A stretch of DNA of 64,000 nucleotides from Takakia lepidozioides (lineage: Eukaryota; Plantae; Bryophyta), in contig CM060732.1 in the NCBI GenBank assembly GCA_030704615.1, positions 63,426,001-63,490,000 of the forward strand, given 5' to 3'. The notes under the pieces were generated by a model. It saw only the letters and a list, made by a program, of their open reading frames with translations. It was not told where the DNA came from and ran no database searches. A program made the translations under genes and the position numbers. Below are positions 1-41,884 of the stretch, piece by piece; position 1 is the first letter of the stretch; each line of letters starts with the position of its first letter.

Positions 1-117
1 GACGTTGAATGTACCATTGAAGACATGTCAAATAGGAGAATCAAAAGAGCATTCATTGCGAGCCTCGCCTCACCTCTGATCTACCATATATAAATGAGCC
101 GCATAGCTTTGGAAGCT

Positions 118-538
118 TGTAAGCCCCATATTTGCTTAGCCTAGAAATGGCCCGTTTCATCCAAAACGGCCATACCCATCCATAGTATATTTTTTTGGCG
201 TATAAAGCCGTTAAACCGTTACAATGATATCTAGGTTAGGGTTAGTTTTGGCTGATGGCTCGATCCTGGCCCTTCATCAGATCCAGGGCTACAAGGCGGC
301 CATGGGCTTTGGCTTATGACGCCTCGCCACGCAGCGGGCCTGACACAAGGTCAGGCCGGTGTACTCGGGTGTTAGTGTATATGTGATTTTGGTGTACAAG
401 CTTTGGATGAGAGCCGCTTTGTCTCAGATCCGTGTGTTTGATCCTCCTCTCATCTGTTGTTTGCTCTTTCCGCTCGCCCCTTTGTTGTGCAACCTTGCTT
501 CTTGAGAGGAAAGGAGTATATACTTCAGGCTTGTTTTA
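118..538 (+). repeat. 5' long terminal repeat segment (B)
   Basis: Roughly 90-93% identical by eye to 6461-6919. Lacks a 35-bp block present in the 3' copy. Ends ...CTTGTTTTA directly before the PBS. Confidence 0.93.
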
Positions 539-554
539 TGGTGGAATCGTCGGG
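539..554 (+). promoter_or_regulatory. Primer binding site (tRNA 3'-end complement, Ala-like)
   Basis: TGGTGGAATCGTCGGG immediately after the 5' repeat. TGG is the complement of CCA, and TGGTGGA is complementary to the UCCACCA end of tRNA-Ala. Confidence 0.7.
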
Positions 555-1719
555 TACCATAGGCGTTGGTGGATCTTGCCCGCGCTGTCAGGGTTAGTTA
601 GGTCTTTTTCACGGGATCTGTTCTACATCCTGCTGCCTAAGTGGTTCGGTAATACGTATGATCAATGGCGGCTCCTCGCCTTGCCATATTTTCTCCTGCT
701 GTTGCAATATTGTCATCTCATGATGCGCGTTGGGGTGTGATTGCAAGGGATGGCTGCCGTTTCGTGACTTGTCTTGTGTAGCTCGCAGAAAGAGGGAAAG
801 CCTCTTTCTTCAGATTAGTGTGGCGCTTACTGTTGAAGCTAATCCTAGTGTGGAGATTGACCCTGCTACCACTTCTTATTATGCTGGTGTTGTTATTGTT
901 ACTCCTCCGGTTGTTGAAGCCACTGTTTTGCTAAGTTCTCTTCCAAGACTTACCAGCCTGGAGAATCCTTGTGGCAGTTTTACATAGACATCAAGTCTGC
1001 TGCTGTTGAGAACATTATTGCCCAGCAGAAAGAGATCGCATGGTCAAAAGGTATTTTCTCCTTGGCTTGCCCCCTGCTATTCAAAATTGGGCTCAGCTTC
1101 ATCATTTTATCAATGACAAAACCATGTTAGCAGAAATTAACCTTAAGATGGCAGACTTGGCTGACAGCAAATCAACGCAACATCATGCCAAATTTCAAGC
1201 TCTAATGGGCTCCGAGCTTGGCATGGCTGCAACATCTGTGTCGTATGTTCCTCCTGCTATGCATTGTAAGACATATGACTTCACCCTTCAAGGATTGACA
1301 GCACAGTAGGCAGTCTTAATGAGTCTGTAGCCATTTAATTTGCTGCAATGCAAGCCCACCAACAGCGTAATTGGTAGCCTCGTCAGGCACAAGGGCCAAC
1401 AAGTGGCAATAATAGGGGTCGCACCCAAACTGGGCAAGCATGTGAAGGTAATCGTGCTGCATGTTACATCTATGGATCTTTTGAGCACTAGACTAAGCAT
1501 TGTCCAGACAGGGCAGACTTACCAGAGCTAATCAAGAATAGGAAAGTTGCTAGTGGTTCTTCCCCTCCTTTCAACTAGAGAGATACCAACCCTACCTCTC
1601 TTATACCAGTTCAAGCTGTTTTATCTACTAATTTCAAGGCCTTGCATTGTCCTCTCAGCAGAAGGGTTGCTGACCAACAAATCAGACCCCTTATGGCTCA
1701 GTGCCACATCCATGAACTA

Positions 1720-2015
1720 AGCTTTCCCTGCGTGATTGATACATGATGCACCATATCTGCTATCCCTCTGAATGTAGTAAGAGTCTTTGGTGCTCTGCTT
1801 CAGGAATTGAGGTTCCGATTGCTGATGGGTCAAGATATGAGCCTCTGGGATTAGTTACTGTGCCCATCAAGATTCACAAGAAAGAGGTGGTGGTGACCTG
1901 CATAGTTACAATTGGGGAACAATTCCTGCTAGGCCTTGACTGGATGACTGGAGCTGGTGCCACCATCAGCCTGACAGACTATTCCCTTCGCTTTAGCAAT
2001 GGTGAGGTGGCATGA
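1720..2015 (+). pseudogene. Retrotransposon aspartic protease remnant
   Basis: VIDT* (degenerate IDTG) at ~1732-1746, IADGS flap and LLGLDW motif in ORF 1743-2015. Confidence 0.85.
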
Positions 2016-2239
2016 AATCGTGGTTCCTTTGAAAGCAATGAAAATCAAGGCTGGGTCTGCTACAGCCAATCTTTCCAGAGTCCAAGCCATGGTCAAAGAG
2101 GTACAACAAAACTCTCACTCCACCCTCAATTAGAATGATTTTTACAAGTTTCAGCCTGATCTTCAACTCTTATATCAATGGCATGTTCCTAGTACTGGTG
2201 GTAAAACAGGGATGCCCATAGCTATTCCAAGGAATTCTA

Positions 2240-2830
2240 CCCTGATTTGTGCACCTCTCAATATAACCATCCCTGCCATGACCTAGAAAGTGGTCAAATC
2301 TGGCATGGCCTTCCTCTGTCCAGCTGCTCTTTTCCTGGAAGTTGAAGGCTGGAGGAGATTGACTGCCATTAGCAAAATTGCAACATCATAAATTGTAACA
2401 TCAATTGTGTACACACTGATATGAAACATACTTCTTTTTCAACCATATGACTGTGTTAATGAAATCATCATAAACACATGAGCTCTACTTCTACAAAAGA
2501 ATAGAAGGAAGGGAGCTAGGGTATCTCAGATTTGCAGCACCTGAATGCCAGCAATATTTTAGACTGATGTACAATGCAGTTTGGAAAAATGTAAGCATCA
2601 AGTATTGCTGCTTAATTTTCCAGTTCTGCTATGTACCTTAAGCTATAGTAGCAGCAAGTAATGGTTTGGGAAGAAGTTATACCGAAAGTTCTCAAACAAG
2701 GCTAGTCGCCACAGGTGTTCTAGATAGGGGATATAGGCAAGAAGTCAAGATTCTAATTGTTAACCCTGAGCGTTTCTCTGTGACCATTAAGAAAGGGCAG
2801 GTCCTGGCTCGCATCACTGCCTTACCCATT
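2240..2830 (+). pseudogene. dUTPase-like domain in pol, interrupted by a ~330-bp insertion
   Basis: N-half reads LICAPLNITIPAMT*KVVKSGMAFLCPAALFLEVEG (~2242-2350). C-half reads ATGVLDRGYRQEVKILIVN...VTIKKGQVLARI (ORF 2666-2944), matching dUTPase motif III (GxxDxxYRGE) and the motif IV region. Confidence 0.75.
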
Positions 2831-3029
2831 TCTGAAATACAAGAGGTGCAAGCTGGCTTTGGACTAGAGGCCATAGGCATACAACATGGCCCCTTGGATG
2901 CTGTTGCTGCCTTTTGCTGCAATTGCACCACCACTTGTTCCTGATCTCAGTCATGAAGGTAAGAAAGCCCTCGCCAAAGTGCTGTCTGAAATCAAGTTGG
3001 GTACCACGGCAAAGAAAGAGAGTTGAGAT

Positions 3030-4370
3030 GTTTATTGCAAAAAATCTAGATGACTTCAGCTTGGGGTCCACTGATTTAGGACGCACTCCCATCATTCAAC
3101 ATGACATTGTTACAGAAAGACCTCCTATCAAACAATTTGCTTACCGAGAGAGTGTCAAAGAACGTGCTATAGTCCAAGAGGAAGTCTAGAAAATGCTTGA
3201 TGCTGGTGTGATTAAGCCATCAGTTTCTCCTTGGGCTAGTCCTATTGTCCTGGTTGGAAAGAAAGATGGCACCACCCGCTTTTGTGTTGACTTCAGGAAA
3301 CTGAATGACATCACTAAAAAAGATGCCTACCCTCTGCCTAGGATCAATGAGACCTTGGATCAATTGCATGGTGCTACAATTTTCTCATCTCTTGATCTTG
3401 CATCTGGTTTTTGGCAAGTTCCTCTCACTGAAGCAGCCAAAGAAAAGACCTCGTTTGTGTGTCGCATAGGCAAATACCAATATGAGACCATGCCCTTTGG
3501 TTTATGCAATGCCACCTCCACCTTCAAACGCCTCATGGACATTGTCTTGGAAAATCTTCGTTGGGAATGTGCCTTAATTTATGTAGATGATATCAATGTG
3601 TATTCAACCAGTTTTGATACCTACTTGACTGACCTGCAGCGTGTGTTCAGCAAATTACGTACTGCAGGCCTCAAAGTAAAGCCAAAGAAGTGTGAACTAT
3701 TCATGCCTGAGCTACACTTTCTTGCATATCCTCTCCAAAGATGGTTTGCTTCCTGATCCTGCCAAGCTTGAGTCTTTTTGGGGCTTTCCTATTCCCTAGG
3801 ATAAACATTGTATCAAATCCTTCCTTGGTCTGGCTTTTTATTATAGACGCTTCATTAAGAACTTTGCCAAGCTTGCCCACCCTCTAACCAAGGTGTTGTG
3901 CAAAGATGCCAGGTTTGAATGGACCTTCTCCCATCAAGCTGCCTTTGACACCCTTCGCAAGGCTTTGTGTTCGGCTCCCATACTGATGTTTCCCAACTTT
4001 GAATTGCATTTCTTGCTTCAGACTGATACATTAGATGTTGCCATCTCTGCAATCTTATGTCAAGTAAGAGAAGGTAATGATCATGTAATAGCTTATGCAT
4101 CTCGCCGTCTTGATCGTCACGAAATGAACTATTTCATATCTGATAAGGAGGGTCTGGCCTTAGTATTTGGTGTGAAGCATTACAGACAATATTTGCATGG
4201 TAGCGGATTTGTGGTGGAAACTAATCATCTTCCACTTAAAGTGCTTATGAAGCCAAGAAAACTTCATGACAGACTTGCTAGATGGGCTATGTACTTGCAG
4301 GAATTTGACATGGATATAGTCTACAAGAAAGACAAGGAGAACACAAATGTTGATGCACTCACACGGGTGG
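3030..4370 (+). pseudogene. Reverse transcriptase and RNase H (frameshifted)
   Basis: SPWASPIVLV, RFCVDFRKLN, LDLASGFWQ, MPFGL and YVDD in ORF 3193-3756. RNase H TD(T), KEGLA, T(N)H and NVDALTR in ORF 3893-4552. Confidence 0.95.
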
Positions 4371-4846
4371 ATCCTCCTGTCAGCAGGCCTATGCTCACCT
4401 TGGATGACCTTGATGCTGCTGATGCAGCCCCTCTTCCTGATCCTGCCCCTCTTCTCAACCTTCTGTGTGCAGATCAGTACCCATTGGCCTTGGATTCACA
4501 TGACATATTGGTTGCTTGGGGCTGGTCTAGCCTTCTCGATGATCCTGGTTGATTTATTCGTGTGTTAGTATGTGTGGTGGATCTATCGCTTAGTGAGAAT
4601 TCGGATAGTTTGATAGCAGTTCTTTGTTATATTTCAGCTCTTCTATTTCTTAGGCCCCCCGAGTTTGTTGTAATTCAGCTGCTGCACTCCGGTGTGACTA
4701 TTGGCTTGAGCCTCAAGGCCTGATTTGGCTGTTCATGAGTAGTAACAAATGAGATAAAGGTATCCCTGACTGGAGATCATAGGTGCAGGCACTCCAGACC
4801 ACCTTCTTTAAAATCCATTGTCTACCTCTTACGTGCAGTGCAGTCA

Positions 4847-6090
4847 TGGATGATCAGCTACATGTTGCGCTACTCCAGCAATGCCAATCAGGGCGTTCGT
4901 CAGCTGGCCTTTCCGAGTCCTGGCGTAAACAAATTCTCTATCATGTATCTACTCACCGTTTTATGGGTGATAAGCTTTTCAAGGAGCTCACTAGAGGGGG
5001 AGTGCCATGCTACCTGGAGGTGCCACCACGGAGCCAGCTGAATGCTTTATTGGAGCGTTTCCATTGTTCCTTGTATGTAGGTCGCCTTGGTATCAAGAAA
5101 ACTGTGGCCCGCATCCAAGAGGTATACTATTGGCTGGGAATTCACCGAGACGTCACCGAGTTCATCTCTAAGTATGAAGGTTGTCGTGCTAACATTGCTC
5201 TCCCTAGGGCCCGGATCTTGTATGAGCTGCAGCCTTTGCCTGTTACCCATGCTTTTGCTCGTGTTGGCATTGACTTAGTAGGACCCCTCGCACTCACATC
5301 AAAGGGTCGAAGCTACCTTTTGTGTTTTGCTACCGACTATTTGACTAAGTGCGTAGAAGTCCGGCCTTTGCGTTCCAAGGTTAGTGATGCTGTAGCTCAG
5401 TTCTTCTTCAATGAGGTCTTTATGCGGCATGGGTGTCATAGGGAGATTCTAACGGCTCAAGGCAAGGAGTTTTGTAACCAGCTCCTCACGGTGATTTGCT
5501 TCAACTTCGGTGTTAAGCATTCCACCACCGCCCCATACCATCCCCATACCAATGGCCTCACGAAACGCTTCAACCAAACTCTTTGCCGAATGTTGGAGAA
5601 GAATGGCACACTTACCAGGGAGTGGGGTACATTTCTTCCCCCTATTCTCTTTGCTTATCGCACCGATGTGCATGCTAACACCAAGAAGACTCCTTTTGAG
5701 TTGCTGTATGGTCACAAGTGTGTCTCAACTTTGCATTCTACCCCTCTTATCTCTACTGTTGCTGATCCGGTTGATCTTGAGACCTTTGTTGAGGATCTTC
5801 ATGCTCGGCATGCGGTGTCTATCCATGATGCCAAGACGAACATTGGTAAGGCTCAGCTTACCCAGGCCCGTAATTTTAACAAGCGTGTCAAGTATTCTAA
5901 CATGTTTCAGGTAGGACAGACCGTGCGCGTTCGATTATAGCATGGCAAGCATGCATGCAAATCTAAGCTCAAGATCGACGGTCCATACTTGATCTATCAG
6001 ATTTTACGTGGGCGACGTGCTCTCGTTATTCCACAAGGCTCTAATACTGAAGTGCGGGATGAACTTGTTTCCTTGACAGACTTGGTGCAT
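4847..6090 (+). pseudogene. DDE integrase (catalytically decayed)
   Basis: ORF 4783-5940 has GIDLVGPL, LT(A)QGKEF and NGLT(K)RFN: the second D and the E are substituted. The HHCC zinc finger is degenerate (H..GR..YEGC). A GPY-like motif follows the stop. Confidence 0.93.
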
Positions 6091-6448
6091 TCCGAGCTAG
6101 TTTTTGATCTTATATAATGTGGAGGGGCGCACGGTGGGGTGATGTCTTGATCTTCTTAGCCGATCTACTTCAGCTTGATCCTCTTCTTTTCTCAGCGACT
6201 TAGTCTTAGTTTGCGGATGGTGACTCTTGGGGTCGTAGGACTTGACCTCTCTAGGACTTCAAACATTTAGTTTCATTTCATATCACCATCTGTACTCCCT
6301 GCACGGTTTTCCTAGCCAAGGGTTTTGTCCTCGGCCCAACTTGCGGGTGCCAGGTTTTTCCTTAGTAGGTTTTTCACCCAGCAGTGGAGGGTGATATTTC
6401 TCTATTATTTGTTTTCCTTCGCGGAGCTCAAGATTTTTCGTGGGGGGT

Positions 6449-6929
6449 AGGCTTCACAGATGTAAAGCCCCATATTTGCTTAGCCTAGAAATGGCCTGTT
6501 TCATCCAAAACGGCGATACACATCCATAGTATATTTTTTTGGCATGTAAAGCCGTTAAACCGTTACAATGATATCTAGGTTAGGGTTAGTTTTGGCTGGT
6601 GGCTCCATCCTGGCCCTTCATCAGATCCAGCGCTACAAGGCGACGCTGTGGGCTTTGGCTTGTGACGCCTTGCCATGCGGCGGGCCACTAAAGCTAGGGC
6701 TTTTGTATAAAGACGGCGCCCTGACACAAGGTCAGGGCGGTGTATTCGGATGTTAGTATATATGTGATTTTGGTGTATAAGCTTTGGATGAGAGCTACTT
6801 TGTGTCAGATCCGTGTGTTTGATCCTCCTCTCGCGCGTTGTTTGCTCTTTCCGCTCGCCCCTTTGTTGTGCAACCTTGCTTCTTGAGAGGAAAAGAGTAT
6901 ATGCTTCAGGCTTGTTTTAAGGCTTCACA
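6449..6929 (+). repeat. 3' repeat block A-ga-B-A
   Basis: AGGCTTCACA (6449-6458), GA, B copy (6461-6919, with TATAAA at 6706-6711), then a second AGGCTTCACA (6920-6929). Confidence 0.92.
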
Positions 6930-7181
6930 AGCTATCTGCGCAATCTTGCAAACACTAATGCGTGGGATGCAGATCCTACAAAACGGATGCCTACAAAGTA
7001 TATTACATCCAATCCTTGAATGATTGAACTTCACAACAAACATCTTCAAAGTCACCTAGCTGTTTGCTGGCCAGTCTAAACAACACAATACATATGCCAA
7101 AGAAGTTAGCCAAACCGGTAGCAAGATACCATCCACCTTTAGATGATGTTCAAGTATGACCTTTCAGCTGTCATTCCAAGG

Positions 7182-7654
7182 GCTGGGCTAACAGAGCGAG
7201 TTTTTCCTCTAGAAAAGGAGGAAATTCTGGGCAAAGCCCTCTTGTTACAATCAAATCCTTGTATCAGGAACCAAGGATCCCCAAAAACCAAATGATCAAT
7301 AGCAACTTAGAAACTGTCATTCAAATTCAAATTCAAGTGATTAACAGATTCGGGAAATGTGCATATTTGTGAAAACAACATGCCATGATCTACCCCCAGT
7401 TCACTGAAACTGTAGATGAATCACAGTTTACCGGGATGGCAGTTTTGGGGTGATTTCGGCTAAGATCACACACTTTGAAAGAACAACAGCTACCGGAAGT
7501 CACAACCAAATACTCAAAACAAGTGTATTTTCAGAAACTAAAGGGGAAAAGTAGGCATACCGCTGTACAACTCCAATTGCTGCCTGCAAGGGGCTTAGGC
7601 CAGCATATGGTACCCCTCCTGTCAACACATCCCTACCAACATGATGGTAGCTGT
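7182..7654 (-). pseudogene. Duplicated fragment of the STY kinase gene (exon 11, intron, part of exon 12)
   Basis: Collinear and highly similar to 16457-16933, including intron sequence. Encodes [24 protein letters not shown] / [22 protein letters not shown]. Confidence 0.9.
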
Positions 7655-8464
7655 GAGTGGCCATGTGAAGATGAACTGAATGGTCCTCTGCCAGGTACAA
7701 ACTCACTTCGCCCAGGCGATGAACTGGATGGACCTACCGTTTGGCAGCTACAAACGGCTTGCGGATGGTCCCCGATGGTCTTCTGGCAGGTACAAAATGA
7801 TTTGTAACCAAACATGCACATACGGTATGCTTCTGCAATCTTTGTAATTTTATTTGCTGTAACGTTACGCAATGGACGTGAGAGGGAACCTCGCCGTCGC
7901 GGGAGGGGGCGGGTGGGGTCACGCGCACGGGGTGGCGCTTGTGATGTATAGACGCATTGTATTAATAGATAGTTGGATGTGAAACAGGACAATGTGGTAC
8001 ATCGAGATAGAGTTGACTGCAGAAGACTGAAAAGGTCCACCATTCCAACAATCCATAGGAGAAGAATCTGCAGTTCCAGCCAAAGCTTGTATACATTTAC
8101 TTCCACATACCCCCCCTCTCAAATCAATAGAGGAGGATATGAGGATTTCAAGATTGTGAAGCTATGAACCTCCATATAATTCAAACTGTCCGAATGTCTA
8201 CCAAAGTACAAATGCTCGTTTCTGACTGCAAACTTCAAGCAAAGCAACAAAAAACGTTTCCTTAAAAGAATGTGTCTACTGACAGCTTTCAAAGCTCACT
8301 TTATTGCTAGGAAAGCTTGTTAATGCAGCGCTAAAGAACAGTGTTTGATTTACAGTTACTTGGAGGTAGTGGAGTACATATGCTTGAGTTTCCAGTTTTC
8401 AAGAGGCATTTGTGCTTATCAAGCAACAAACCATGGAATGGAGGCATGCTTGGCAACTAACAAG

Positions 8465-11400
8465 CTAGTTAAGTGCAAAAGCCTCAAGCGGGCTGGATTT
8501 GCTGTTACCCGCTTCTTGCTGATGCGATTCTAACTCTCGGATATGACCTGTGTATTCGTCCCATGTGAAGGGCCGATACTTTTGTGGATGATCAGCATCG
8601 ACAAGCTCGGCAGGAGCAGAAATCTGTGTCTCGGACGCAACTGAACAGAAGAAGATCATTGAGATCCGTGACTCTTTTTCATTCAGGACTGCTCTGTGCT
8701 GCACGCTTCTGAACCGACCGTTGCTCCAAGCCTACAGATCCATGGTTGAGTGGAAGAGCAGTCCCAGGGTCATCATCAGAAAATAGAAATTGGATATTGT
8801 CTTCAGGCCGCCCGCACATTGGGCATTTACAATCTCACTTTCCTCTCTGCATCTGTTTTTTGTTCAAGGTAGACTACCCACCCCGAGCTCAAATTTCAGT
8901 CTAGTGCCAAGGGTAGGTAGGCACTTCAGGTCATCCTTAAGCCCGAGTCACAGACTGGAACCAAGTTCAGAGAGGTTTTATGCCTGACTTCATTTTGTTT
9001 GGACATTCTGTGTGCTTCCAACACACTCCTTAGACAATTCAGCCTCCAACTCAGCTTCTCCAGCAGGGTCAGTTCCTGCCTGATGTCCAGGTACTTAAAA
9101 TCTCCTCTACCCTTTTCCGCTTGATAGTCCAGCACTAGATAAACAATACTACCACATCAATTTCAGCCTCCCATTTTCAGGTTTCCTAATTCTGACAGAG
9201 GGCATTGGCTACAGTAGACCAGCCAAAAGAGCAAAGTACATTGACCGGATCATGTAGACGGTGTACACATATACCCCAGTATGCTGCTGCTACAGGGCCT
9301 GGCACAGTATATGAGAGATTAATTCGCTATCAGATGTCATGTTGGTTCACTAGGAACCTTCATGGACGTACCATTCTCCTTTTCTTCACAGACCATGTAG
9401 TAGCAGATAGTGCAAGGCACAAAGTCCTAATTCCACTTTGGCATAAGGAAGGATAATCCAAAATAGACTATCAAATTCCTCCCAAGAGAAAGATAAGAAA
9501 TAGATATATGCTGCTTTCAGAAGTATCAGAGAGATTGTACTCATAAGATGTTGTTTGCTGTAGCCTTGTGGCCATTGACCCCGCGCCCAGTTTGAGCGGG
9601 AACAAAAGGGACAGAACCTACCTCTGTCAGGGGCTGACGTTGGTAGTAAGACTTACCTCCATATAAAGAATTAATCCGGGTTTTCCAGATATCCTCTAGA
9701 AATCCCTTCACACAAGCATCAATCTGCTGTGTGTGATTTGCCCAAAAACTAGGCCTCAGGAGGGCCTGGGCTTTTGGCTCAGCCTCGAGACTTTCAAAGT
9801 TGGTAAACAGGGGTACAGGCACAATTCCCTTAATAGATTTGAAGAGAGCGTCTCTTTGGTGAGAGAACCCCGGACTGTATCAGAAAATGAATACTGTCTT
9901 CAGATTGCCCACACAACGGGCAATTGCACTCTCCCTTTCCTCTCTGCTTCTGTTTGCTGTTCAAAGGTAGGCTTCCTGCCCTGAGTTTAAATTTCAGTCT
10001 AGTGCTGAGAGTGGGTAGACTCTTGAGGTCATCCAAGAGAGAGAGAGAGAGAGAGAGAGTGTGTGTGTTTGTGTACGTGTGTACTCATAAGACTGTTTGC
10101 CGTGGCCATAGACCCCGTCCCCAGAACAAGAGGGAACAGACACTACCTTTGTGAGGGGCTCACTCCAGTGGTGGGACTTACCTTGATATATCCAATTGGT
10201 TCGGGCTTTCCAGATTTCCTCTAGAAAGCCCTTCACACAAGCATCAGTCTGCTGTGTGTGATCTGCCAACAGTTACACCCCAACAGGACCAGGGCTTTAG
10301 GCTCAGCCTCCAGATTTTGAAAGTTAGTGAACATAGGTGCAGGGACTATGTTCTTGATTGATGGTCCTGAAGACGGTCGGTCTCTGATGAGAATACCCTG
10401 GACATTGTCTTCAGGCCGAGGGGATGCGCTAATATCATTATTCGGAAACCACATCCCATGATCCTCATCTAAGGTGTCCATGTAGTTCACCATGCACCCC
10501 AGAAAGGTTCATGAATGTGTCTACTTCCCAAGTCAGTTAACCCACAGTAAATAGATCGGTAAAATCATAGAGAGACAGAGAGACGAACCTGCAGAGTATC
10601 ACCAACATTGATAACAAGGCCATCAACACGAGGCTTTACAGTTACCCATGTACCATCTTTTCCCATTATTTGGAGGCCTCCAACATGATCTTGGTGCAGT
10701 ATTGTGAGCATGAAAGTATCAGTGTGGACACCGACGCCAAGCGTCTTTGAGGGTTGTAGGCATGGTGGGTAGCTGGTGAAGCGTGCCAGGGACTCATTTC
10801 CTTTCTTAAAAGGTTTGGTGAAGGTTGTGTGGTTTAACCCAAGACCTTCAGCGCAGAGTTCCAAAATTTGCATGGAGAGATTTTCTGTGGCCTTGAAGTA
10901 CGCTTCCACGCATGTGCTAACACAAACAAAGGGGTTGAAAAATGTTAAGAAAAGAAAGAGGGAACTTTATAGCATGGAAAATCCAACAGACTGTGGGACA
11001 AAATATATAACAAACAAAGAACTAGAAAAACCACACTAAATTGCTGCACATAGATGGAGCACCTCTTGGAGGTGGGTCGGTGTGGGTGGGTGTATGTGTG
11101 AGGGTGAGAATAAAATGTACTCATGAGATGTTTGAGTGGCCTTGTGGCCATAGACCCCCCACCCAGTTTGGACGGAACAAGAGGGAATTAACACTACCTT
11201 TGTGAGGGGCTCACTCCAGTAGTGGAGACTTACAATGGTATAAATAATTGGTTCAGGCTTTCCAGATTTCCTCTAGAAAGCCTTTCACACAAGCATCAAT
11301 CAGCTGTGTTTGAGTTGCCCAGAAATTAGACCCCTAGAGGGCCAGATAGGCTCAGCCTCCAGATTTTGAAAGTTGGTGCACAGAGGTGCATAAGACTATG

Positions 11401-13864
11401 TTCTTGATGGTCCTGAACAGGGTCGCTCTCTGATGAGAACACAACAATCATCAGGGCTGTCTTGGACCATAGGGCTCTTTCTACTATATCATTCCATTCT
11501 TTAGAAAACCCCGCACTATTAGAGTTACGTTCACAGCCAAGATGGCTATAGTGCGTTTCAAAGGTATTCACAATCTCAACCATAGAAGTCAACACTTCAA
11601 CCTTGTCATTCCTTAAAGCGTGTACTTGCTGCTCATTTTCCGGCCCGTACAAACGCTGTAAAGCCAACCAGAATCATTACCATTGTGGTGGTTCAAGCTA
11701 ATGTCACAGTACAACTCTTCACATTGTCTTCTGAAAGGAATTCTATCTTGACCTCTTCCCTCCAGAATTTCTCTATGCTCCACTTTCTAATAGAATGTTT
11801 TACAGATCTCTTAGTGTTAAGAATACACCTTTTGACCTCAGAGTGAAGAGTCCACCACTATCGGTTCTATCAATCAACACTTTGGCATACTGAGGAAACA
11901 ACTCCTAATCTACTATGATATAATCCACAATTGAACAATCCCAAGTTTGGGTTTTTTCACTGGTCCACTGCAAATGGTCCAACTTCAAATTGCTTCCTTT
12001 GGCTAGTCAGCCAAACGGAAGTTAAAGGTGCCCCAGCCACAAGCCAGCCTTTTCATACAAATTGTCTGTTGTCGAGGTTGCTATTGCTCCTAGACATCCT
12101 AAAATTCTGCTTTAATGGGTCGCGTGCAGGCTTTGATTGCCTTGTGTAAAATTTGAGGATTGGCATGCCATATCCTTTGTTCACAACTTGATCAGTCACA
12201 TGCAAAGGTAGGTCTGACTGACATGGTCTCCTTGCATAGACCTTTGGGTTTGGGAGCTCTATCGTAGTTCTTATAATTTGCTCTAACCAGATCCCATTGT
12301 CATGACGATTATCAAAGAACAAAGCTATCTCCCAAATGAATGACTTTGGTTACAAGACAGCCCTTTGAAATCTACACTGATATCATCAGGTAAAATCACA
12401 CCACACTTGAGTTGAAATCACAGGAAAGATCTTCAGCAGAACTTATTTGCACATCTCAATCACAGGTACCTGAACTCAGTATAAGCAGGCTTTCCCAAGC
12501 CATAGACTTGGAGGGCATGTTCTTGCAGCTGGCCCTGCCTTCCCCAAGCAACTTGGAATCTTTCAAACCACGGGCGTCCAGCATACCTAAAACACAAGCA
12601 TAACAAGCTGGTAAAGTACATAAACATTATCAAAGCTTGATCCGCTTGCTCTATCTCCCACCCCCTCCCCCTCAAGACGCCTTACCATGCTGCATCTCTG
12701 TATCCAAATCTAGTGTATCCAAGTACTCCATTTCCACCTTTAGCCCAATGTTTTAAAGCAACCCCTTCATCGAAAAGAGGGAGAGGGACTAGCCTGTAAC
12801 CAGCGATTCCATATCCAGATTTACCGACACCAACCGCTCTCTTTTTCTGCTCTAAAGGAAGAGCGAAGTACTCAGCAGCATGCGCCTGCGTTCTTTGTAC
12901 AAGGGTGAGAGGAATGCCATGGTTGATGACCTGGTAAGAACCAGACATCACCTCAAATCGGTCATTTGAAATGGATAAGAAAGATGTCATGTCTGTGGTG
13001 GATAGACCACCCTGAGAAACAAAGAATTGAATGACACAGGAGGTACATGACAACACGTTCCCTTGAGAAACTCTGGAATGAATCTGGAGTGAAGGCTGAC
13101 CTTTTACAACACTACCGGTGCCAAGCTCAGTTAAGTTAATTAAACCAAAGATACTTTGACTGGTGTACCTGGAAGAAGCCCCACTCTTCGCATGCGCTGC
13201 AAATCTCTTTCACAATCTTGTGTCTCCCAGTTTGCCCTCCCTGTAAGCATAGTAACAAAGACCAGATCGAGGGTAAACTTCACAGCAAACGACTGAATGG
13301 GAAATCCATCCCCTTCACTACTGGTTGTGTTCACAAGGTGGGAGCATCTGCTAGTCTATACTTGGGATGTCTTTAAACCCGTTGCACCGCTCTTGCAGGC
13401 AATGGAGCATCATTTATCCACCCCCTCTTTAAACTTTAAATTGGACATGGAGACGAAATTCTGTAGGTATGATTACTTAGTTCGGCATTGCTGTTCAGCT
13501 CGCAGGCAATCCACCATTCATGGTGCGCCCCATGGATACCACACCACCACTGTTACTCACAATCAACGATGAGATGTATTGTCTTTTCATTCAATTTTCA
13601 TGTAACTGATTCCGGCCTGCTAGCCTCACGTTCACACACGCCAAAAGTTACCGTGGTGAGCCCGGACAGGTCAATGACAGGCAAGCTTTCGGATCCCCCA
13701 TAGTCGTTGTGGGCTACGGAGGGGCGCACATGCTCGGGCCACTCATAGTCAGCCATCAACGAAGATCCCTGTGTGTGTGCCAGTGCCGCCGGCACACCCA
13801 CACCTGCTCTACCTGATTCCCTCCTTGTCTCATGTGCCTGCTTCAAATTTCCACTCTCTGACAT
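8465..13864 (-). CDS. 2-oxoglutarate/Fe(II)-dependent dioxygenase, DOXC class (GA20ox/GA3ox-like fold), ~374 aa, 5 exons
   Basis: Exons 13864-13652, 13240-13169, 12930-12686, 10916-10589, 8731-8465; all GT-AG and in phase. Motifs: LPVIDLS, ACEEWGFFQVINHG, HTD, GGLQI, NVGDTLQAWSNGRFRSVQHRAV, RIS. Confidence 0.93.
8795..9190 (-). mobile_element. LINE ORF2 C-terminal fragment (intronic)
   Basis: Homologous to 9890-10036 and 36215-36400; LKFxLxxGSLP followed by a CxxC zinc-knuckle region. Confidence 0.7.
9537..10036 (-). mobile_element. 5'-truncated LINE 3' end
   Basis: ORFs 9830-10036 (RLKFKLRAGSLPL...CPLCGQSEDSIHFL) and 9541-9822 (...GRGVNGHKATANNIL*). Terminates TCTTATGAGTACA. Confidence 0.8.
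10081..10420 (-). mobile_element. Second LINE 3'-end copy with (CA)n(TC)n tail
   Basis: Paralogous to 9541-9850. Ends TCTTATGAGTACA, followed by the microsatellite at 10037-10080. Confidence 0.8.
11116..12350 (-). mobile_element. Internally deleted APE-class LINE (endonuclease remnant + linker + 3' end)
   Basis: SIVDYIIV at 11911-11934 and a degenerate GDFN-like motif at ~12015-12036. Linker-like ORF 11326-11667 is fused to the same 3' end as the other copies (11116-11445). The 5' boundary is uncertain. Confidence 0.65.
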
Positions 13865-16030: not shown

Positions 16031-19000
16031 TCATGAGGAGCTGGAGGCGGGGAGCTTTTTCTTCCCAAACAAGCCTTTACGGGGTGAGACAGCCGAGGAT
16101 ACCATTCCCTCTAGCACTGCCAGTACCTGCAAAAGCATTGTACGCCACATTCCTGACCATCAGACCTCTCTACAGTTTTATTGCAACCTATGTTCGATAA
16201 ATGCTGAGACAGGCAATATGCAACAGCGAACAAGTTGATAAATCTCAAGGTATACAGATTCTTCGTTTACATTGGCCAGGCTGGGCTTGGCCTCAAAAAG
16301 TTAGTGACAAAACCAAAGGAAAAGAACGTGAACACAAGCTTGACAACCAGACAAATAGTCTCTGTCACAGACAGCATACAAATCAGGAAGGCCAGCAGAA
16401 TTCACAATGCACCTCACTGAATTCAGGCCGCTGCCTGGGGTCGTGGTTCCAGCAGTGCTGGGCTAACAGAGCGAGTCTTTCCTCTAGAAAAGGAGGAAAT
16501 TCTGGGCGAAGCCCCCTGTTGTTACAATCAAATCCTTGTATCAGGAACCAAGGATCCCCAAAAAACAAACGATCAATAGCAACTTAGAACTGTCATTCAA
16601 ATCCAGGTAAATTTATATGCAAGACAAGCTGTGAATATTTGTAAGAACAACATGCCATGATCTACCCAGAGTTCACTTACATAGATGAATCACAATTTAC
16701 ATGGATGGCAGTTTTGGGGTGATTTCAGCTAAGATCACACATTTTGAAAGAACAGCTACCGGAAGTCACAACCAAATACTCAAGCAAACAAATGTATTTT
16801 CAGAAACTAAAGGGGAAAAGTAGGCATACCGCTGTACAACTCCAATTGCTGCCTGCAAGGGGCTTAGGCCAGCATATGGTACCCCTCCTGTCAACACCTC
16901 CCTGGTCCATGTTACCAACATGATGGTAGCTGTTAGTTTCATGTGGAGAGATGTGCCTTTACTGTTCCATGTGCACCTTGGCTATGGCATAACCTTCAGA
17001 CTAACCACACAGTATACTAAAGTCCTGGAGCTGGTCAACGGGTTTTCCCATCACTGTACTGGTACCAAACTCACATAATGCCCCACAGCTGATAACATTC
17101 CAGAGAGTGAGTGTTGCTTTAACAGCTGGATTGGCTGGATATGAGTGATTTAAGGCAAGAAGACAAAAGGAGGGACGAACAAGGAACTTCTATCCATGGC
17201 ATGCTGAAAGAGGTCTTCAGAAGAAGGAAAATGGAAAACCAGCTAGAAAAGAAAAGTTGTCAGAAGAAATGAAATGGTGCTTCATAACATCCTTTCCTTC
17301 AGAAGGAAGGAGAAAGAAAGGTTCATTACATCTGCAGAAGAGGCCCCATGGGACAAAGAGCAGTATGATGAAATGGTACTTTATCACGTCCCTGGAAAGC
17401 TTAACGTGAGAAACAAACGGAAAAGGAAAAGAGAGGGGCCCTCCACAAGCAGCCCAAAAGCAACTATTGCTCAAAGGGTTTGTCTAAGAGTCAACGCCTC
17501 ATGCACATAAGCTGCCAAGCATTTCGGATGCACATAATGGAAGACCTGTGAGAGATTGGTTACCATGAACAGACAATTGAATATCCCATGGATCTCATAG
17601 TACAATGGCCAGTGAAAGAAGAAATCATTTCTTTTGTTGAAATGTGTATTAAAACATTGTGTCTAGGTAAATAGACCCTGTGATGGAACGGCCCCACTGT
17701 CTTTCTTGTATCCTTCTAGAACTTAATGTCAGGTGGTCATGGAAACCAGCCAACCATACAACAAAATTGCAGTTCTATCCAGAGACATTCTTGGTCTCTG
17801 CGAAGATAGAACCTTGCGGCCCATTTACCTGTCTGCAGCTCATCTCCCTCACTTCTAAGGGAATTGGGGAGGTTCAGCCAGTCTGCGGACAGAGGCCGGT
17901 AGGTGGGACAAGCTTTAACGTGAGGAGCACCACCTATGCCCCGAGTGAGCTGGGAACATCAGCAGCCTTAAGGAAATTCTCAGGAGATCAGGAGATTCTC
18001 AAAGATGGAAAGCCTCATATAGGTGTGCTGCCAAGCATTTCTGATCCTCGTAATGAAAGACCTCAGCAAGGGATTCGCTGTCCCACAATAGGCAATAGTA
18101 TCAACCCTGGATAGCGTAGTAGAGAGTAGAGTGTAATCGCATCTACCGGTTTCTATCCGCAGCTGTGTGAGTCCCACCAAACCTTCCCAACACATAGAAG
18201 AGATGGAAGTTCCAGACAGGTAATTGGGCTGTAAAATTCTATCATCAAGGAGGACCAGGAAGTGTCCTGGTAGAAAGAAACTTCCATGGGAAGCTCAGAG
18301 CTCATGGGAGGAAAGGAAAGGAGCTTTATACCATCCATGTGAAGTCAAAGAGCTTTTGGAAAGAAAAAAAGAATGACAAGAGAAAGGAGCGGGGACCTCA
18401 ACAAGCAGCCCAAAACCCACAATTGAGCATCCAGAGATCCTCTAAGGTGGACAGCCTCATAGGTGTGGGAGGAAATGGAATGAAATGAAATCCCAAGTGC
18501 CCAGGGGACACCAGTGGGACAACACAGAAGGAGGAACGAAAGACAAGGAAGAAATATAATGCATCCATGGAGAGGGATGGTGATGTACCACATAGTGATG
18601 CCAAATGAATAGACATCTGCCTTGTGGTCATACGGCTTATGCTCCAGCACCTTCCAGAGTCCCAAACATATGCCAGTGTCATTAACAGATACATAATACT
18701 TTGGAGCTACATGAATACTTCAAGTCAGATGCCTGGCTTCAAAACTTCTCCAACTTCAAAACTCCTGAAGGAGTAGGGATGCCAACAAGTCCATTCATTC
18801 AATTTTCTTACATCTCTAGTGAGATAATTCTTTACCAGAAACCTGAGTAAGTACCTCTTGCTGCTAGCAGAGGCTTCATTGTTCATAGGCACCTACCATT
18901 CTGTTTACATCTTGGCCTATTAAAAAGAGACCACTACATGAAAAAACCAAGATGAAATGCAGACAAGTCTCAACACTACCACTCAACATTAAGTTATCAC

Positions 19001-22000: not shown

Positions 22001-24915
22001 AAAGTTATCCTTGGAGTTGTAAGGTAAGCTGGTGTACTGTGCCTTAAGAGAAGAAACCAGCATCAAAATACACCAAATGAAGTAGGCAACATTGGTATTT
22101 CCACAGGATATCCAAATTTGCTTTTGAGGTCCAAGCTGGAGAGAGAAACCATTGACATACCTGATTGAAGTCAACAGCCCAATCTTCGTAAGAAATGGCT
22201 TCTGCAGCTGCACGCAACTCGGCATCATTATCCCAGGGAGACTTTTTGTCCAGCTTGTTACTCAGAGCTAAGAGAACTGCTTGCCTAAGGTCTTCTGCCT
22301 GCAATATTTGGCCAAGGTGCTTGTATCACAAACAAGGATGTACCCAGACTTTCCACTTTTACAAACACGAAAATGTTAATAGAGTGGATTCACAAATTCT
22401 GTGGCAGCCGATTGTATATGAAGCAGTCAAGATAATCTCCAAACAAAACAACTAGTGCATGGCATCAGGAGGTTTACTGCAAGAGGAATCCATCCATCCC
22501 AATAGTGTAGAGCACAATAGACACGAGCTGCCATGGCACCATCGCCTAGCGGCTGCTAGTTAAGGTCCTTAAGATGTTGTTAGCTTAGGTTTTCACAAAC
22601 AAGTATAACCCTCATTTCCATTAATGATGTGGTATCTATGGTACTACTCCTACTCTGCGCATGCACAACCAATATGGTAATGCTCAAATCCTTTCTGCAA
22701 GTATAAGACTTTAAGTACTTCAACATCTCTTCAGGTAGAAAACAGCTGAGGAAGGTCGTATCTTGGCTTCAAATCAAGCTATAATAATAGGCTGGATCTT
22801 GTCCCTTGAAAGCCTACAGCCCTTACCGGAACAGCAACCAACCATACTACTATATGCCCCCAAAGTGAAAATGTTCTCAAAAATTGTGACATGAATGTAG
22901 AAACCCTGGGTTCAGATAAGCTAACCTCATCACCAGGCCACCCCTCGACTACAAACACCTCCAATGCCATTCCATCTGTCGTGCTGAACACATGAGCTTC
23001 CTGCAAAAGATGAACTCAACACATGTAAGATCAATGTTGTTTAAAGAACAAGTCACGGTGGGAGAACAAATGAAGTTCCATGTGATCCAGATCCAAAGAA
23101 GCACAGTTGACACAAGACAAAATACATCCATCAAGCTCCAACTTCTCTATCAATCCCAATGGCCAAACTTAGAGCATCTGGTAAAAATTCATGCTGGAGA
23201 GTATATAGTGAAGGAGACTTCTGACAGCTCCTCCAGACACACCTTGATATTCAACTGGAGCATAGAATTACTCAGTGCCGATGTAAAAGACTTCAAGAGC
23301 CCATGCCTATCTGATGTAGCAAGAGTGATTTCATATCCATAAGTTGGGCTCGCATCCTCATGCTCACTGTAACAGCCAAGGGCATCCTCGTCCACGTGTA
23401 GAGGATTGCTGAAATTCCCAAACATCGGCCGGGGGATGGGAATGGGGAGGCCGGTGCTGCCAGGGGGTGTGCGGGAGGGAGGAGTGGCATGGAGGGGAGG
23501 GGTCCCATGTGGAGGTGTCGACCTGGTAAAAGGTGAACCCACAGGGTGGACTTTTGGACTCCCTCCATGTCCCATGTTTGCAAGATTTGTGGTTGAGCCA
23601 AAGGCAGGTTTGGGTATTTCAATCCCACGGTGGTGGTGTAAGGCACTGCTCTTGAAAGCATCACCAGGAGGAGATCCAGAACCTAGTTGGACTTTCCGTA
23701 CATGCACTTGAGGGATTGGGAAGGGGTCTCCCGAGATCCTGCTGCTGTTACTGAGAGCCTCAGCCTCACGGGCCCCTTGAAGCAAATGCATATGGAGTAG
23801 CACATCCTCATGTCTTTGAGCATCAATGTTGAAAGTGTACCTGCCAACTCAAAGAAAGTATGATGATCATGATTTCAAACCTTAGTAGAATTGAACCATG
23901 ACAATAGCTGTTGTTGAATAGGTTTCTTCTGTCTCTCTCTCTCTCTCTCATCATTCTAATCAATCTGCCATTCCAAAGATGACTACAAGTAAACTGCAAT
24001 GGACTTACATCCACAGTGCTCTTGCTGCAATGAGTATTACAGAGGATTCCAACTTACACACTATCTGCTACTCTTTGTAGACACGGTGATGAAATTGTAG
24101 TTCAGCATATACCAGTGTTTTGGTGACGCTGTAGTTAAGCAACTGCATGCCTGAAGATTATGGATCCTATAAAAGCTGAGAGACGCAAAAGATGGCCATA
24201 TTCTTTGACTTATTTAATCCAACCCTCTAGGATGAAAGAAAGCCGCCCCATGCAATGTGTGGACATGATCCAGTAAAGGGGAAAGCAACCTGAGTCTGTA
24301 AAATGTTTAGCCTTTTATAGGTCGGTCCTTTGTGAATAGGTAAGGCATTACTCTCATACATGGGAGATCTCTTCTAGTCCTCATAGTGTCCGCTCTTCCT
24401 GAGAGCCAGACCAGAAATGACAGGAAACTATATGTTAATACCTAGTTAGCAGGACTGCCTGCCACCTTCTGTCAACGTATATGATAATCAACAAGCGCAA
24501 GACATCTTGGATGTGGGAGGATCTAGACACCCAGACATACGAAGAGACTCTACCTAGCCGGCAAGCGAGCAAAATGGTCGCGAAGCTCGACGCACACATC
24601 CTCATATCCATACGCCCGCACCCTCTCAACAACTTGCATCACCACTCTCTGCAAGGCATTCAAAGATACGAGGGATCGGCCTTTCTTGTCTTCGTCTGCA
24701 AGCCACGAAGGGCTCCCCATTGCCTTCGAGGAGCCCCGACAAAAACCGATCGAATTGAAGTATCCTTCACTGAGACAACTTAAGGTCCGCCTATTTGAGG
24801 CAGTTGGGGGATGAAGAGGCTGCTGCAAATGAGATTCCAAATCCTTGCTGCCATTGATTCTGTCCTTTGCTCTATCCTTCACTACCGCTCCGGAGCCATT
24901 CACCTTCAACTGCAT
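16031..24915 (-). CDS. ACT-domain Ser/Thr/Tyr protein kinase (STY8/STY17/STY46 family, Raf-like), ~687 aa, 13 exons
   Basis: Exons 24915-24554, 23840-23243, 23000-22926, 22298-22161, 21551-21376, 20842-20750, 19987-19889, 19426-19369, 19251-19120, 18650-18589, 16901-16830, 16515-16413, 16126-16031. Motifs: HFARLPARY...HEDVLLH, ACT-domain [49 protein letters not shown]. Confidence 0.95.
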
Positions 24916-35862: not shown

Positions 35863-36488
35863 AACAATCAAATCACACATGGGCCAATCACAAACACATT
35901 GATGCTTGTGTAACGGGATTTCTAGAAGATATCTGGAAAACTCGGATCAATTGTCTGTTCCAAGGTAAGTCATACTACCGGAGTCAGCCCCTGACAAAGG
36001 TAGTTTCTGTCCCTTCGTGTTCCGCTCAAACTGGGCGCAGGGTCAATGGTCACAAGGCTACGGCAAACAACGTCTTATGAGTACATTCTCCAACCATCAA
36101 GGTAAGTCACATCAGCCCCTAACAAAGGTAGTTTCTGTCCCTTTGTGTTCTGCTCAAACTGGGCGCGGGGTCAATGGCCACAAGGCTACAGCAAACAATG
36201 CCTTACACACACTCTCTAACCAACAAATTAGGCATAAAACTTGCCTGAACTTGTGTCCAGTCTGCGTGGACCTTAAGGATGACGTAAAGGGACTACCTAC
36301 CCTCGGCACTAGACAGAAATTTAACCTCAGGCCGGGGAGTCAACCAGATGCAGAGAGGAAAGGGAGATTGTCAATGACCAATGTGCGGGGACAACCAGGG
36401 TATCCTTATCAGCGAGAGATGTCAGACATCCAACGAAATCAAACAAATTGTGTATATCAAGGTAAGTCCCAGTACTGGAGTGGGACCC

Positions 36489-36521
<33 letters not shown>

Positions 36522-41290: not shown

Positions 41291-41884
41291 TATATATGAC
41301 GCCAACCGAAGCTAGCGTAAATAAGAGCCTCTTCGCTTACCGCACAGGTCCTTCTGTGTCATATTGTAAGCCTCCCGGCCCTGGGTGGTTATTTGTTGCA
41401 CACTATTTTTTCTATTTTTTGCCAACATATAGGCCATTTTCCCTTTGTGTATGTGTATATATATGTCATACTTGAACACCTTCAATAAGTCTTCCTAAAA
41501 CCCTTGATACAAAAAATAGAGATCTGAACTTGCAATATAGTTCCATTTATCCAATTACTTGTTTATATATTAATATATTTTTTGATTATATTGTGGGGTG
41601 CGGTGTTCTGGGGATGGACGACTAGGTTACTTTGAAAAAGGTTTAATTTTTCTCTTGTCATCTTGTGTAGAAGATAATAAATTCATTAATGGTGAGAATA
41701 TTGTGAAGTATGTTACTTCCATGGAGAATATCCTAATGGTGGTGCCTCTATGATTCTTGACGTTGCCACTAGATCACTGGATCATAGTTGGAGTGTCTCC
41801 AACTAAACATGCATCATGGGTAGGGCTCTACCCAGAGGGGGGAGAGGCTCTTATGTACGCTAGCTTCGGCTGACATCATATATG
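41291..41884. repeat. Inverted pair of a ~50-bp dispersed repeat
   Basis: TATATGACGCCAACCGAAGCTAGCGTAAATAAGAGCCTCT versus GAGGCTCTTATGTACGCTAGCTTCGGCTGACATCATATA. Confidence 0.7.

What the first reader, a model, noticed from the sequence alone, without database searches (positions are those of the whole stretch)
118..6929. Gypsy element with permuted 'split' LTRs, consistent with integration of a 2-LTR circle at an internal palindromic att site
Seen: the 5' repeat B (118-538) runs straight into the PBS with no terminal CA. The PPT is followed by A=AGGCTTCACA, then GA, then B (6461-6919), then a second A (6920-6929) and the TSD. A-ga-B (GGCTTCACA-GA-TGTAAAGCC) is a near-palindromic CA|NN|TG junction. 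Established: the PBS and PPT define the cDNA ends, so the reverse-transcribed LTR here would be [A-ga-B], whose ends lack the TG...CA needed by a DDE integrase. Split direct repeats of this topology are known from tyrosine-recombinase Ngaro/PAT elements with circular intermediates, and retroviral integrases can cut palindromic LTR-LTR junctions in vitro. Inference: cDNA ends are ligated (creating the B-A junction at 6919/6920), integrase cuts the palindrome inside one LTR, the GA is lost, and insertion leaves a 4-bp TSD. That yields exactly B-internal-A-ga-B-A, i.e. a DDE retrotransposon that integrates via a circle.
Basis: partly seen in the sequence, partly recalled or inferred. Interest (0 to 1): 0.88.

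Follow-up and report, generated by a model that had tools for sequence, protein, structure and literature searches.

The report
Retrotransposon that integrates via joined ends
A family of gypsy-type jumping genes in a seedless land plant keeps the last ten letters of its right-hand tip inside the element instead of in its first terminal repeat, so each new DNA copy likely has to join its two ends into a circle that its integrase would then cut open for insertion, a route that the HIV literature treats as a dead end or a back-up.

Summary
Confirmed, and family-wide. The element reads TSD-B-PBS-gag/pol-PPT-A-GA-B-A-TSD. Public contigs show diverged sibling copies built the same way: B runs straight into the PBS (6 of 6 listed spanning pieces, 3 studies), A-GA follows the PPT (13 of 13 listed spanning pieces, 2 studies), and many different flanks abut TG at 6461 and CA at 6929. 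It has a DDE integrase and no tyrosine-recombinase hit. Ordinary reverse transcription cannot make the terminal A, so the cDNA ends are likely joined, and integrase likely cuts the CA|GA|TG junction. 4-bp TSD and tRNA-type PBS fit the Selgy lineage (not placed by phylogeny). No circle or cleavage was observed; contig tables were truncated; no second full-length copy was obtained. The scan noted the same architecture before in another genome (e1-7226295). Ten literature searches listed no description.

The parts
114..117 (+). left 4-bp target-site duplication (AGCT)
   Evidence: sibling flanks RGCY-like
118..538 (+). 5' repeat B: LTR without its last 10 bp; carries a 35-bp deletion that removes the TATA-like box present in the 3' copy
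   Evidence: alignment; TATAAA at 6706 in the 3' copy; context
539..554 (+). primer-binding site (starts TGG, flush with B); likely tRNA-Ala type
   Evidence: a sibling PBS 16-mer is complementary to the CCA end of a tRNA in 2 of 120 viral loci, one Ala(CGC), one called Arg(TCT); host tRNA not tested
1740..2015 (+). aspartic protease remnant
   Evidence: 37% identity, E 2e-14, to the protease region of relative P0006
2642..2944 (+). dUTPase-like domain between protease and RT, shared with relative P0006
   Evidence: PF00692 E 5e-7; P0006 E 1.5e-8
3190..3756 (+). reverse transcriptase (broken by stops and a frameshift)
   Evidence: PF00078 E 6e-33; tblastn
3800..4552 (+). RT C-terminus and RNase H
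   Evidence: PF17917, PF17919
4783..5940 (+). DDE integrase (H2C2 + rve), downstream of RNase H; decayed, two of three catalytic positions substituted in this copy
   Evidence: PF17921, PF00665; best PDB hit Ty3 Gag-Pol E 2e-22, then foamy virus integrase; alignment
6442..6448 (+). polypurine-tract-like G6 plus T, preceded by a T-run (function inferred)
6449..6469 (+). internal att junction A-GA-(start of B): CA|GA|TG with 9-bp arms, 1 mismatch
   Evidence: kept in diverged siblings
6461..6919 (+). 3' repeat B
6920..6929 (+). terminal A, the right att tip ending in CA; identical to the internal A
   Evidence: B-A-flank in siblings
6930..6933 (+). right 4-bp target-site duplication (AGCT)

Best explanation
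This is a Ty3/gypsy retrotransposon family whose right att tip is stored next to the PPT, and which likely integrates only after the two ends of its cDNA have been joined precisely and its DDE integrase would cut the CA|GA|TG junction beside the join. Shown: the split anatomy in many copies, TG and CA ends with short RGCY-like flanks, a DDE integrase. Inferred from standard LTR reverse transcription: tRNA priming at the PBS and plus-strand priming at the PPT give a linear cDNA with A-GA-B at both ends, whose right end lacks CA. Inferred: the plus-strand 3' end (end of B) is linked to the A at the left end, by ligation or by an end-to-end template jump of RT (sealed or nicked circle). Inferred: integrase cuts after CA on each strand, which leaves the usual 2-nt 5' overhangs from the shared GA, and inserts with a 4-bp stagger, giving B-PBS...PPT-A-GA-B-A. 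The PPT-side junction appears unused, likely because a full right att needs B's end in front of A, or because joining and cutting are coupled.
For: B abuts the PBS in 6 of 6 listed pieces that span 538/539 (23 pieces shown, 198 hidden; X2, X5, X6 = 3 studies; 2 have 31 or more letters on both sides; 6-31 differences from the window copy). A-GA is kept in 13 of 13 listed pieces spanning 6449-6460 (7 distinct contigs; 32 shown, 2812 hidden; 2 studies; none 12 letters shorter). Heterogeneous flanks abut 6461 (12, 9, 13, 2 contigs in X1, X2, X3, X6) and 6929 (9, 9, 9, 2); X1-X3 are one sample. All 10 contigs listed as running on behind B carry an A-like 10-mer in register, then flank; none then a PBS (4 studies). 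Terminal A equals internal A. At 2 of 24 listed LTR sites both window B copies share a letter that differs from 97% or more of sibling depth, as expected if both came from one template by strand transfer. No tyrosine-recombinase family among 45 translated frames of the element. Precedent: HIV-1 integrase cuts a 2-LTR junction after CA on both strands (PMC1905944, passages); IS3/IS30/IS21/IS256-type transposases insert from a circle junction with a short spacer (PMC3299598, passages).
Against: No circle, cDNA end, transcript or cleavage was observed. No second full-length copy could be fetched, so both ends are linked in one molecule only in the window copy. The contig tables are truncated (49 and 7 indel rows, 284 and 21 loose-end rows hidden), so a minority of canonical copies or of by-products is not excluded. 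The PPT is short and the T at 6448 must be left out of the join. For HIV, linear cDNA is described as the only precursor of the provirus (PMC3148978, passages). The 2 shared LTR sites could also come from gene conversion.
Confidence: 0.65

Rival explanations
1. One reading: host end-joining makes a free 2-LTR circle and integrase cuts either A-GA-B palindrome; 1-LTR circles are substrates too.
For: Same product topology; 2-LTR circles are made by NHEJ (PMC3148978) and can be re-linearised by HIV integrase (PMC4372172, passages).
Against: No PPT-A-flank group among 24 loose-end rows shown and no 6929-to-6461 joint in the joint table; B|A in register in 10 of 10 listed contigs plus the window, whereas NHEJ junctions of plant retrotransposon circles carry small indels (PMC9324142, passages). 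Hidden rows weaken both points.
Confidence: 0.15
2. No joining: the RNA spans the whole element from first TG to last CA and is copied end to end into a ready linear substrate; PBS, PPT and internal junction are relics or accessory.
For: Would give the same anatomy without a circle; transcript ends are unknown (contigs cannot show them).
Against: tRNA-complementary PBS flush with B; TATA-like box in mid-B; letters private to this copy shared by both B copies (2 of 24 sites); nothing would then keep the internal A equal to the terminal A.
Confidence: 0.1
3. The integrase makes the join itself, as in step I of IS3-type copy-out/paste-in: the 3'-OH at B's end attacks the bond just in front of A, then the junction is cut in a second step.
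For: Would explain the exact join, the loss of the T at 6448 and use of one junction; DDE precedent in PMC3299598.
Against: The donor end would lack CA; no such activity was tested; nothing unusual is evident in the integrase alignment.
Confidence: 0.08
4. One-off rearrangement or assembly error of a canonical element.
For: Only one full copy in the window.
Against: Diverged siblings in up to four studies show the same junctions; an intact TSD flanks the element.
Confidence: 0.02

Closest known systems
Ty3/gypsy LTR retrotransposons, non-chromovirus lineage Selgy (Neumann et al. 2019, PMC6317226)
   Same: PR-RT-RH-IN order, 4-bp TSD (96% in Selgy), tRNA-Ala PBS (90% in Selgy), short element, no chromodomain, seedless-plant host.
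   Different: 5' LTR lacks the CA tip, which sits beside the PPT; 6812 bp against 4432-6724; dUTPase-like domain. Whether Selgy elements are themselves split is untested: they were called by TG/CA at element termini and TSD, filters that a split element might pass (inference).
Retroviral 2-LTR circle junction cleavage (HIV-1, foamy virus; PMC1905944, PMC4372172)
   Same: Near-palindromic CA-N-TG junction cut by integrase after CA on both strands.
   Different: There a back-up route from host-made by-products; here the junction is encoded in the element, the spacer is 2 bp, and the route would be obligatory.
IS3/IS30/IS21/IS256 copy-out/paste-in insertion sequences (PMC3299598)
   Same: DDE enzyme inserting from abutted ends separated by a short spacer: the closest functional model.
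   Different: Bacterial DNA transposons; the junction is made by the transposase from chromosomal DNA with a host-derived spacer, not by reverse transcription with a fixed GA.
PAT/Ngaro split direct repeats (A1-B1-A2-B2) and the DIRS-1 internal circle junction (PMC4157794, PMC7192593)
   Same: Same repeat topology; an internal copy of the end junction supplies a missing end.
   Different: Those use a tyrosine recombinase and make no TSD; this has a DDE integrase, PBS, PPT and TSD, and one repeat is only 10 bp. Convergent.

Membership tests
Ty3/gypsy LTR retrotransposon | PR-RT-RH-IN order with DDE integrase | tested here: met
Ty3/gypsy LTR retrotransposon | PBS after the 5' repeat and PPT before the 3' repeat | tested here: met
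   (sequence only; priming not shown)
Ty3/gypsy LTR retrotransposon | Element ends TG...CA with a short TSD | tested here: met
Ty3/gypsy LTR retrotransposon | Two complete LTRs, each TG...CA, so that the linear cDNA carries both att tips | tested here: not met
   5' repeat lacks A in the window and in 6 of 6 listed spanning sibling pieces
Selgy lineage | 4-bp TSD | tested here: met
Selgy lineage | tRNA-Ala PBS | tested here: inconclusive
   complementary to a tRNA CCA end in 2 of 120 loci, one Ala, one Arg; phage tRNAs, not the host's
Selgy lineage | Clusters with Selgy references in RT/RH/IN trees | not testable with these tools
   reference FASTA too large to read; RT tree of 62 rows (2 dropped for short coverage) puts it with 5 unnamed proteins at 100/100, among mostly unnamed and animal gypsy RTs, far from the one grass element
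PAT/Ngaro (YR retrotransposons) | Split direct repeats A1-B1-A2-B2 | tested here: met
   topology only
PAT/Ngaro (YR retrotransposons) | Tyrosine recombinase instead of integrase | tested here: not met
   no YR family in 45 frames; rve integrase present
PAT/Ngaro (YR retrotransposons) | No target-site duplication | tested here: not met
   4-bp TSD
IS3-type circle-junction insertion (works-like) | Enzyme cleaves abutted ends in a circle junction | not testable with these tools
   geometry fits; needs biochemistry or circle sequencing

The most novel reading that the evidence does not exclude
A whole lineage of gypsy elements in mosses and lycophytes (possibly Selgy itself, mis-bounded by LTR finders) has made circle-junction integration obligatory: a retrotransposon that inserts like a copy-out/paste-in IS, and the first natural element to live by the 'circle with two LTRs as precursor' route that was rejected for retroviruses.
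Probability: 0.5. Interest if true: 0.9.

Novelty: new variant of a known kind. Interest (0 to 1): 0.8.

Why it matters
Linear cDNA is taken as the only precursor of LTR-element integration and 2-LTR circles as dead ends or back-ups (PMC3148978, PMC4372172). Here the anatomy rules out direct use of the standard linear product, and every insertion records its B|A join in the chromosome, so the circle question can be tested from one genome assembly plus circle sequencing. It would also link retroelement integrases to the circle chemistry of IS3-type transposases, show convergence on the split-repeat design of PAT/Ngaro, and mean that LTR annotation misplaces ends in this lineage.

Tried and rejected
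No whole genome is held. Full-length relatives were sought without success: 0 loci in viral contigs, 0 matches to a clade-specific RT motif in metagenome and genome contigs; 11 and 3 more distant RT loci held no LTR pair (all 11 and 3 self-compared), so they serve neither as support nor as control. The five closest RT relatives came without accessions, so their ends are unknown. No RNA holder was listed as such; X5 and X7 are only guessed RNA; nothing is concluded on expression. Summed contig depth (about 1e4 on the LTR against 50-70 on the flank in X1) was not used as copy number. The one listed piece with 14 gap letters across the junction is 12 letters longer than the window, not shorter, so it is not a canonical copy; where its insertion lies is unknown. 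The joint '6817 to 6787, GA' in X2 is a local duplication inside B, not the att junction. Other hits of the 9-mer arms in the window (10632, 11657, 37293, 56492) are not element ends. The PBS-tRNA scan was mostly chance: 117 of 120 loci had no overlapping tRNA or tmRNA call, 1 overlapped a tmRNA call. A 5-bp TSD reading was rejected. Literature: ten full-text searches listed no gypsy element with such ends, judged from titles and abstract starts; subscription journals and Repbase are not covered; Yang et al. 2023 was not opened and is cited only through PMC12951756.
Full report
Observation. The stretch 118-6929 reads AGCT | B (118-538) | PBS | gag-pol remnants | G6-T | A (6449-6458) | GA | B (6461-6919) | A (6920-6929) | AGCT. 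The 3' unit B-A is an ordinary-looking LTR, TG...CA with 9-bp terminal inverted repeats; the 5' unit lacks its last 10 bp, and those 10 bp stand next to the PPT. The two B copies differ at 28 of 421 aligned sites and by 38 gap columns (K2P 0.07). The two A copies are identical, and only 8/10 like the inverted start of B. The 10-mer occurs nowhere else in the window.

What it encodes. Pfam finds a dUTPase-like domain, RT, RNase H and an H2C2/rve integrase in gypsy order; a protease remnant is seen against relative P0006. The integrase is closest to Ty3 and foamy virus integrases among solved structures and is decayed. No tyrosine recombinase, ligase or other enzyme family was hit in 37 further frames on both strands. 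The RT groups with five unnamed proteins at 66-72% identity, support 100/100 (62 rows, 2 dropped). A host kinase exon points to a seedless land plant. A 4-bp TSD and a tRNA-type PBS fit Selgy (4-bp TSD 96%, tRNA-Ala 90%; PMC6317226, passages and supplementary table), but no Selgy sequence was at hand. A sibling's PBS is complementary over 16 nt to the CCA end of a tRNA in 2 of 120 viral loci, one Ala, one Arg.

Is it a one-off? No genome is held, so public contigs were laid on the two junction regions (10 runs listed, 6 laid; X1-X3 are one sample and may be the window's source; X5, X6, X7 are three other studies). On 6200-7000, unlike flanks abut 6461 in 12, 9, 13 and 2 contigs and 6929 in 9, 9, 9 and 2 contigs (X1, X2, X3, X6), so there are many insertions with TG and CA ends. 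Of 32 pieces shown (2812 hidden), 13 span 6449-6460 (7 distinct contigs, 12-28 differences from the window); none is 12 letters short; three distinct ones have 31 or more letters on both sides, one of them from X6. No joint or listed gap removes A-GA (12 gap rows shown, 49 hidden). One X6 contig runs from B's end straight into a PBS. On 430-690, 6 of 23 pieces shown (198 hidden) span 538/539, in X2, X5 and X6, with 0-3 gap letters: none holds the 10-mer; two bridge with 31 or more letters on both sides. Ten contigs in four studies run on behind B, all with an A-like 10-mer in register and then flank, none then a PBS (18 loose-end rows shown, 21 hidden). The split form is thus the family's normal form; a minority of canonical copies cannot be excluded.

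Mechanism. By standard LTR reverse transcription (established knowledge), the minus strand starts at the PBS, so the right cDNA end is B's last base, without CA; the plus strand starts at the PPT, so the left end is A-GA-B. That both B copies come from one template is supported by 2 of 24 listed LTR sites at which both window copies differ from 97% or more of sibling depth (only the best-supported rows were available). The terminal A therefore has to be regenerated in each round from the PPT-side A, which requires linking B's end to A at the other end (inference). Cutting CA|GA|TG after CA on each strand gives two ends with 2-nt 5' overhangs, the normal processed geometry, and insertion gives exactly the observed element (inference). 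HIV-1 integrase does cut a 2-LTR junction after CA on both strands (PMC1905944, passages), such circles can feed integration after drug removal (PMC4372172, passages), and IS3/IS30/IS21/IS256 transposases insert from junctions with short spacers (PMC3299598, passages). A circularisation step in second-strand synthesis is reported for fly LTR elements (PMC12951756, passages), but that circle has one LTR and makes no B|A join.

A free circle holds two A-GA-B sites. Use of the PPT-side site, or of 1-LTR circles, would leave PPT-A-flank ends. No such group is among the 24 loose-end rows shown, and no 6929-to-6461 joint is listed (284 rows hidden; contigs show presence, not absence). The joins seen are exact in 10 of 10 contigs plus the window, while NHEJ junctions of carrot retrotransposon circles carry small indels (PMC9324142, passages). 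The sequence in front of the two A copies is unrelated, so B's end may complete the right att only after joining. I therefore favour a precise join (ligation in the particle or an RT end-to-end jump) with use of the new junction only (0.65), over the free circle (0.15), a full-length linear copy (0.10), integrase-made joining (0.08) and a one-off (0.02).

Against the reading. No intermediate, transcript end or cleavage was seen. Both ends are linked in one molecule only in the window copy: searches for full-length relatives failed. The PPT is short. For HIV, linear cDNA is called the only precursor (PMC3148978, passages).

Comparison and novelty. It is a Ty3/gypsy element by its proteins but fails the two-complete-LTR feature. 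It has the repeat topology of PAT/Ngaro (PMC4157794, passages and section 5) and an internal junction copy like DIRS-1 (PMC7192593, passages) but is not a YR element. It would work like step II of copy-out/paste-in transposition. Ten searches listed no description; coverage is open-access only, and two large supplements of PMC6317226 could not be read. The attribution of the old circle-precursor model to Panganiban and Temin (1984) is recalled, not read. The scan's note e1-7226295 reports the same architecture with a different tip in another, probably moss, genome; it is an unchecked AI note that I could not test, and look-ups by sequence and place found nothing. Verdict: real, family-wide, new variant of a known kind, interest 0.8.

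Noticed in passing
window 2642-2944: dUTPase-like domain between protease and RT, also in relative P0006; not listed as an extra domain for any plant gypsy lineage in the Neumann 2019 table.
   Followed up: partly
element flanks: Insertion sites look biased to RGCY (AGCT here; AGCC, AGGC, GGCT in siblings; pooled flanks read GGCC on both sides).
   Followed up: partly
window 338/339: The 5' repeat has lost 35 bp including the TATA-like box, between short GC-rich matches; this copy is probably silent.
   Followed up: partly
tree: The RT clade of the element sits among mostly unnamed and animal (sponge, fish, arachnid) gypsy RTs at 55-61% identity rather than near the one flowering-plant element sampled; sampling is too thin to argue for transfer.
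   Followed up: no
X3, behind 6933: Five contigs share the four flank letters and then diverge (agreement 0.5); their pooled letters include a PBS-like word, unexplained.
   Followed up: no
window 8785-11442 and 35880-36496: Three partial tandem copies (spacing about 525 and 1050 bp) of an unknown repeat, with an inverted copy 26 kb away; no Pfam hit of note.
   Followed up: no
window 7174-7671 and 16447-16949: 500-bp direct repeat pair, 87% alike, 9.3 kb apart; no gypsy RT hit between them.
   Followed up: no
window 41292-41883: 592-bp element with 41-bp inverted ends in a TA context, MITE-like.
   Followed up: no
window 23189-23848 (-) and 12682-13209 (-): Host exons: a protein kinase whose best relatives are moss, lycophyte and liverwort proteins at 48-56%, and a 2-oxoglutarate dioxygenase N-terminus.
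   Followed up: partly
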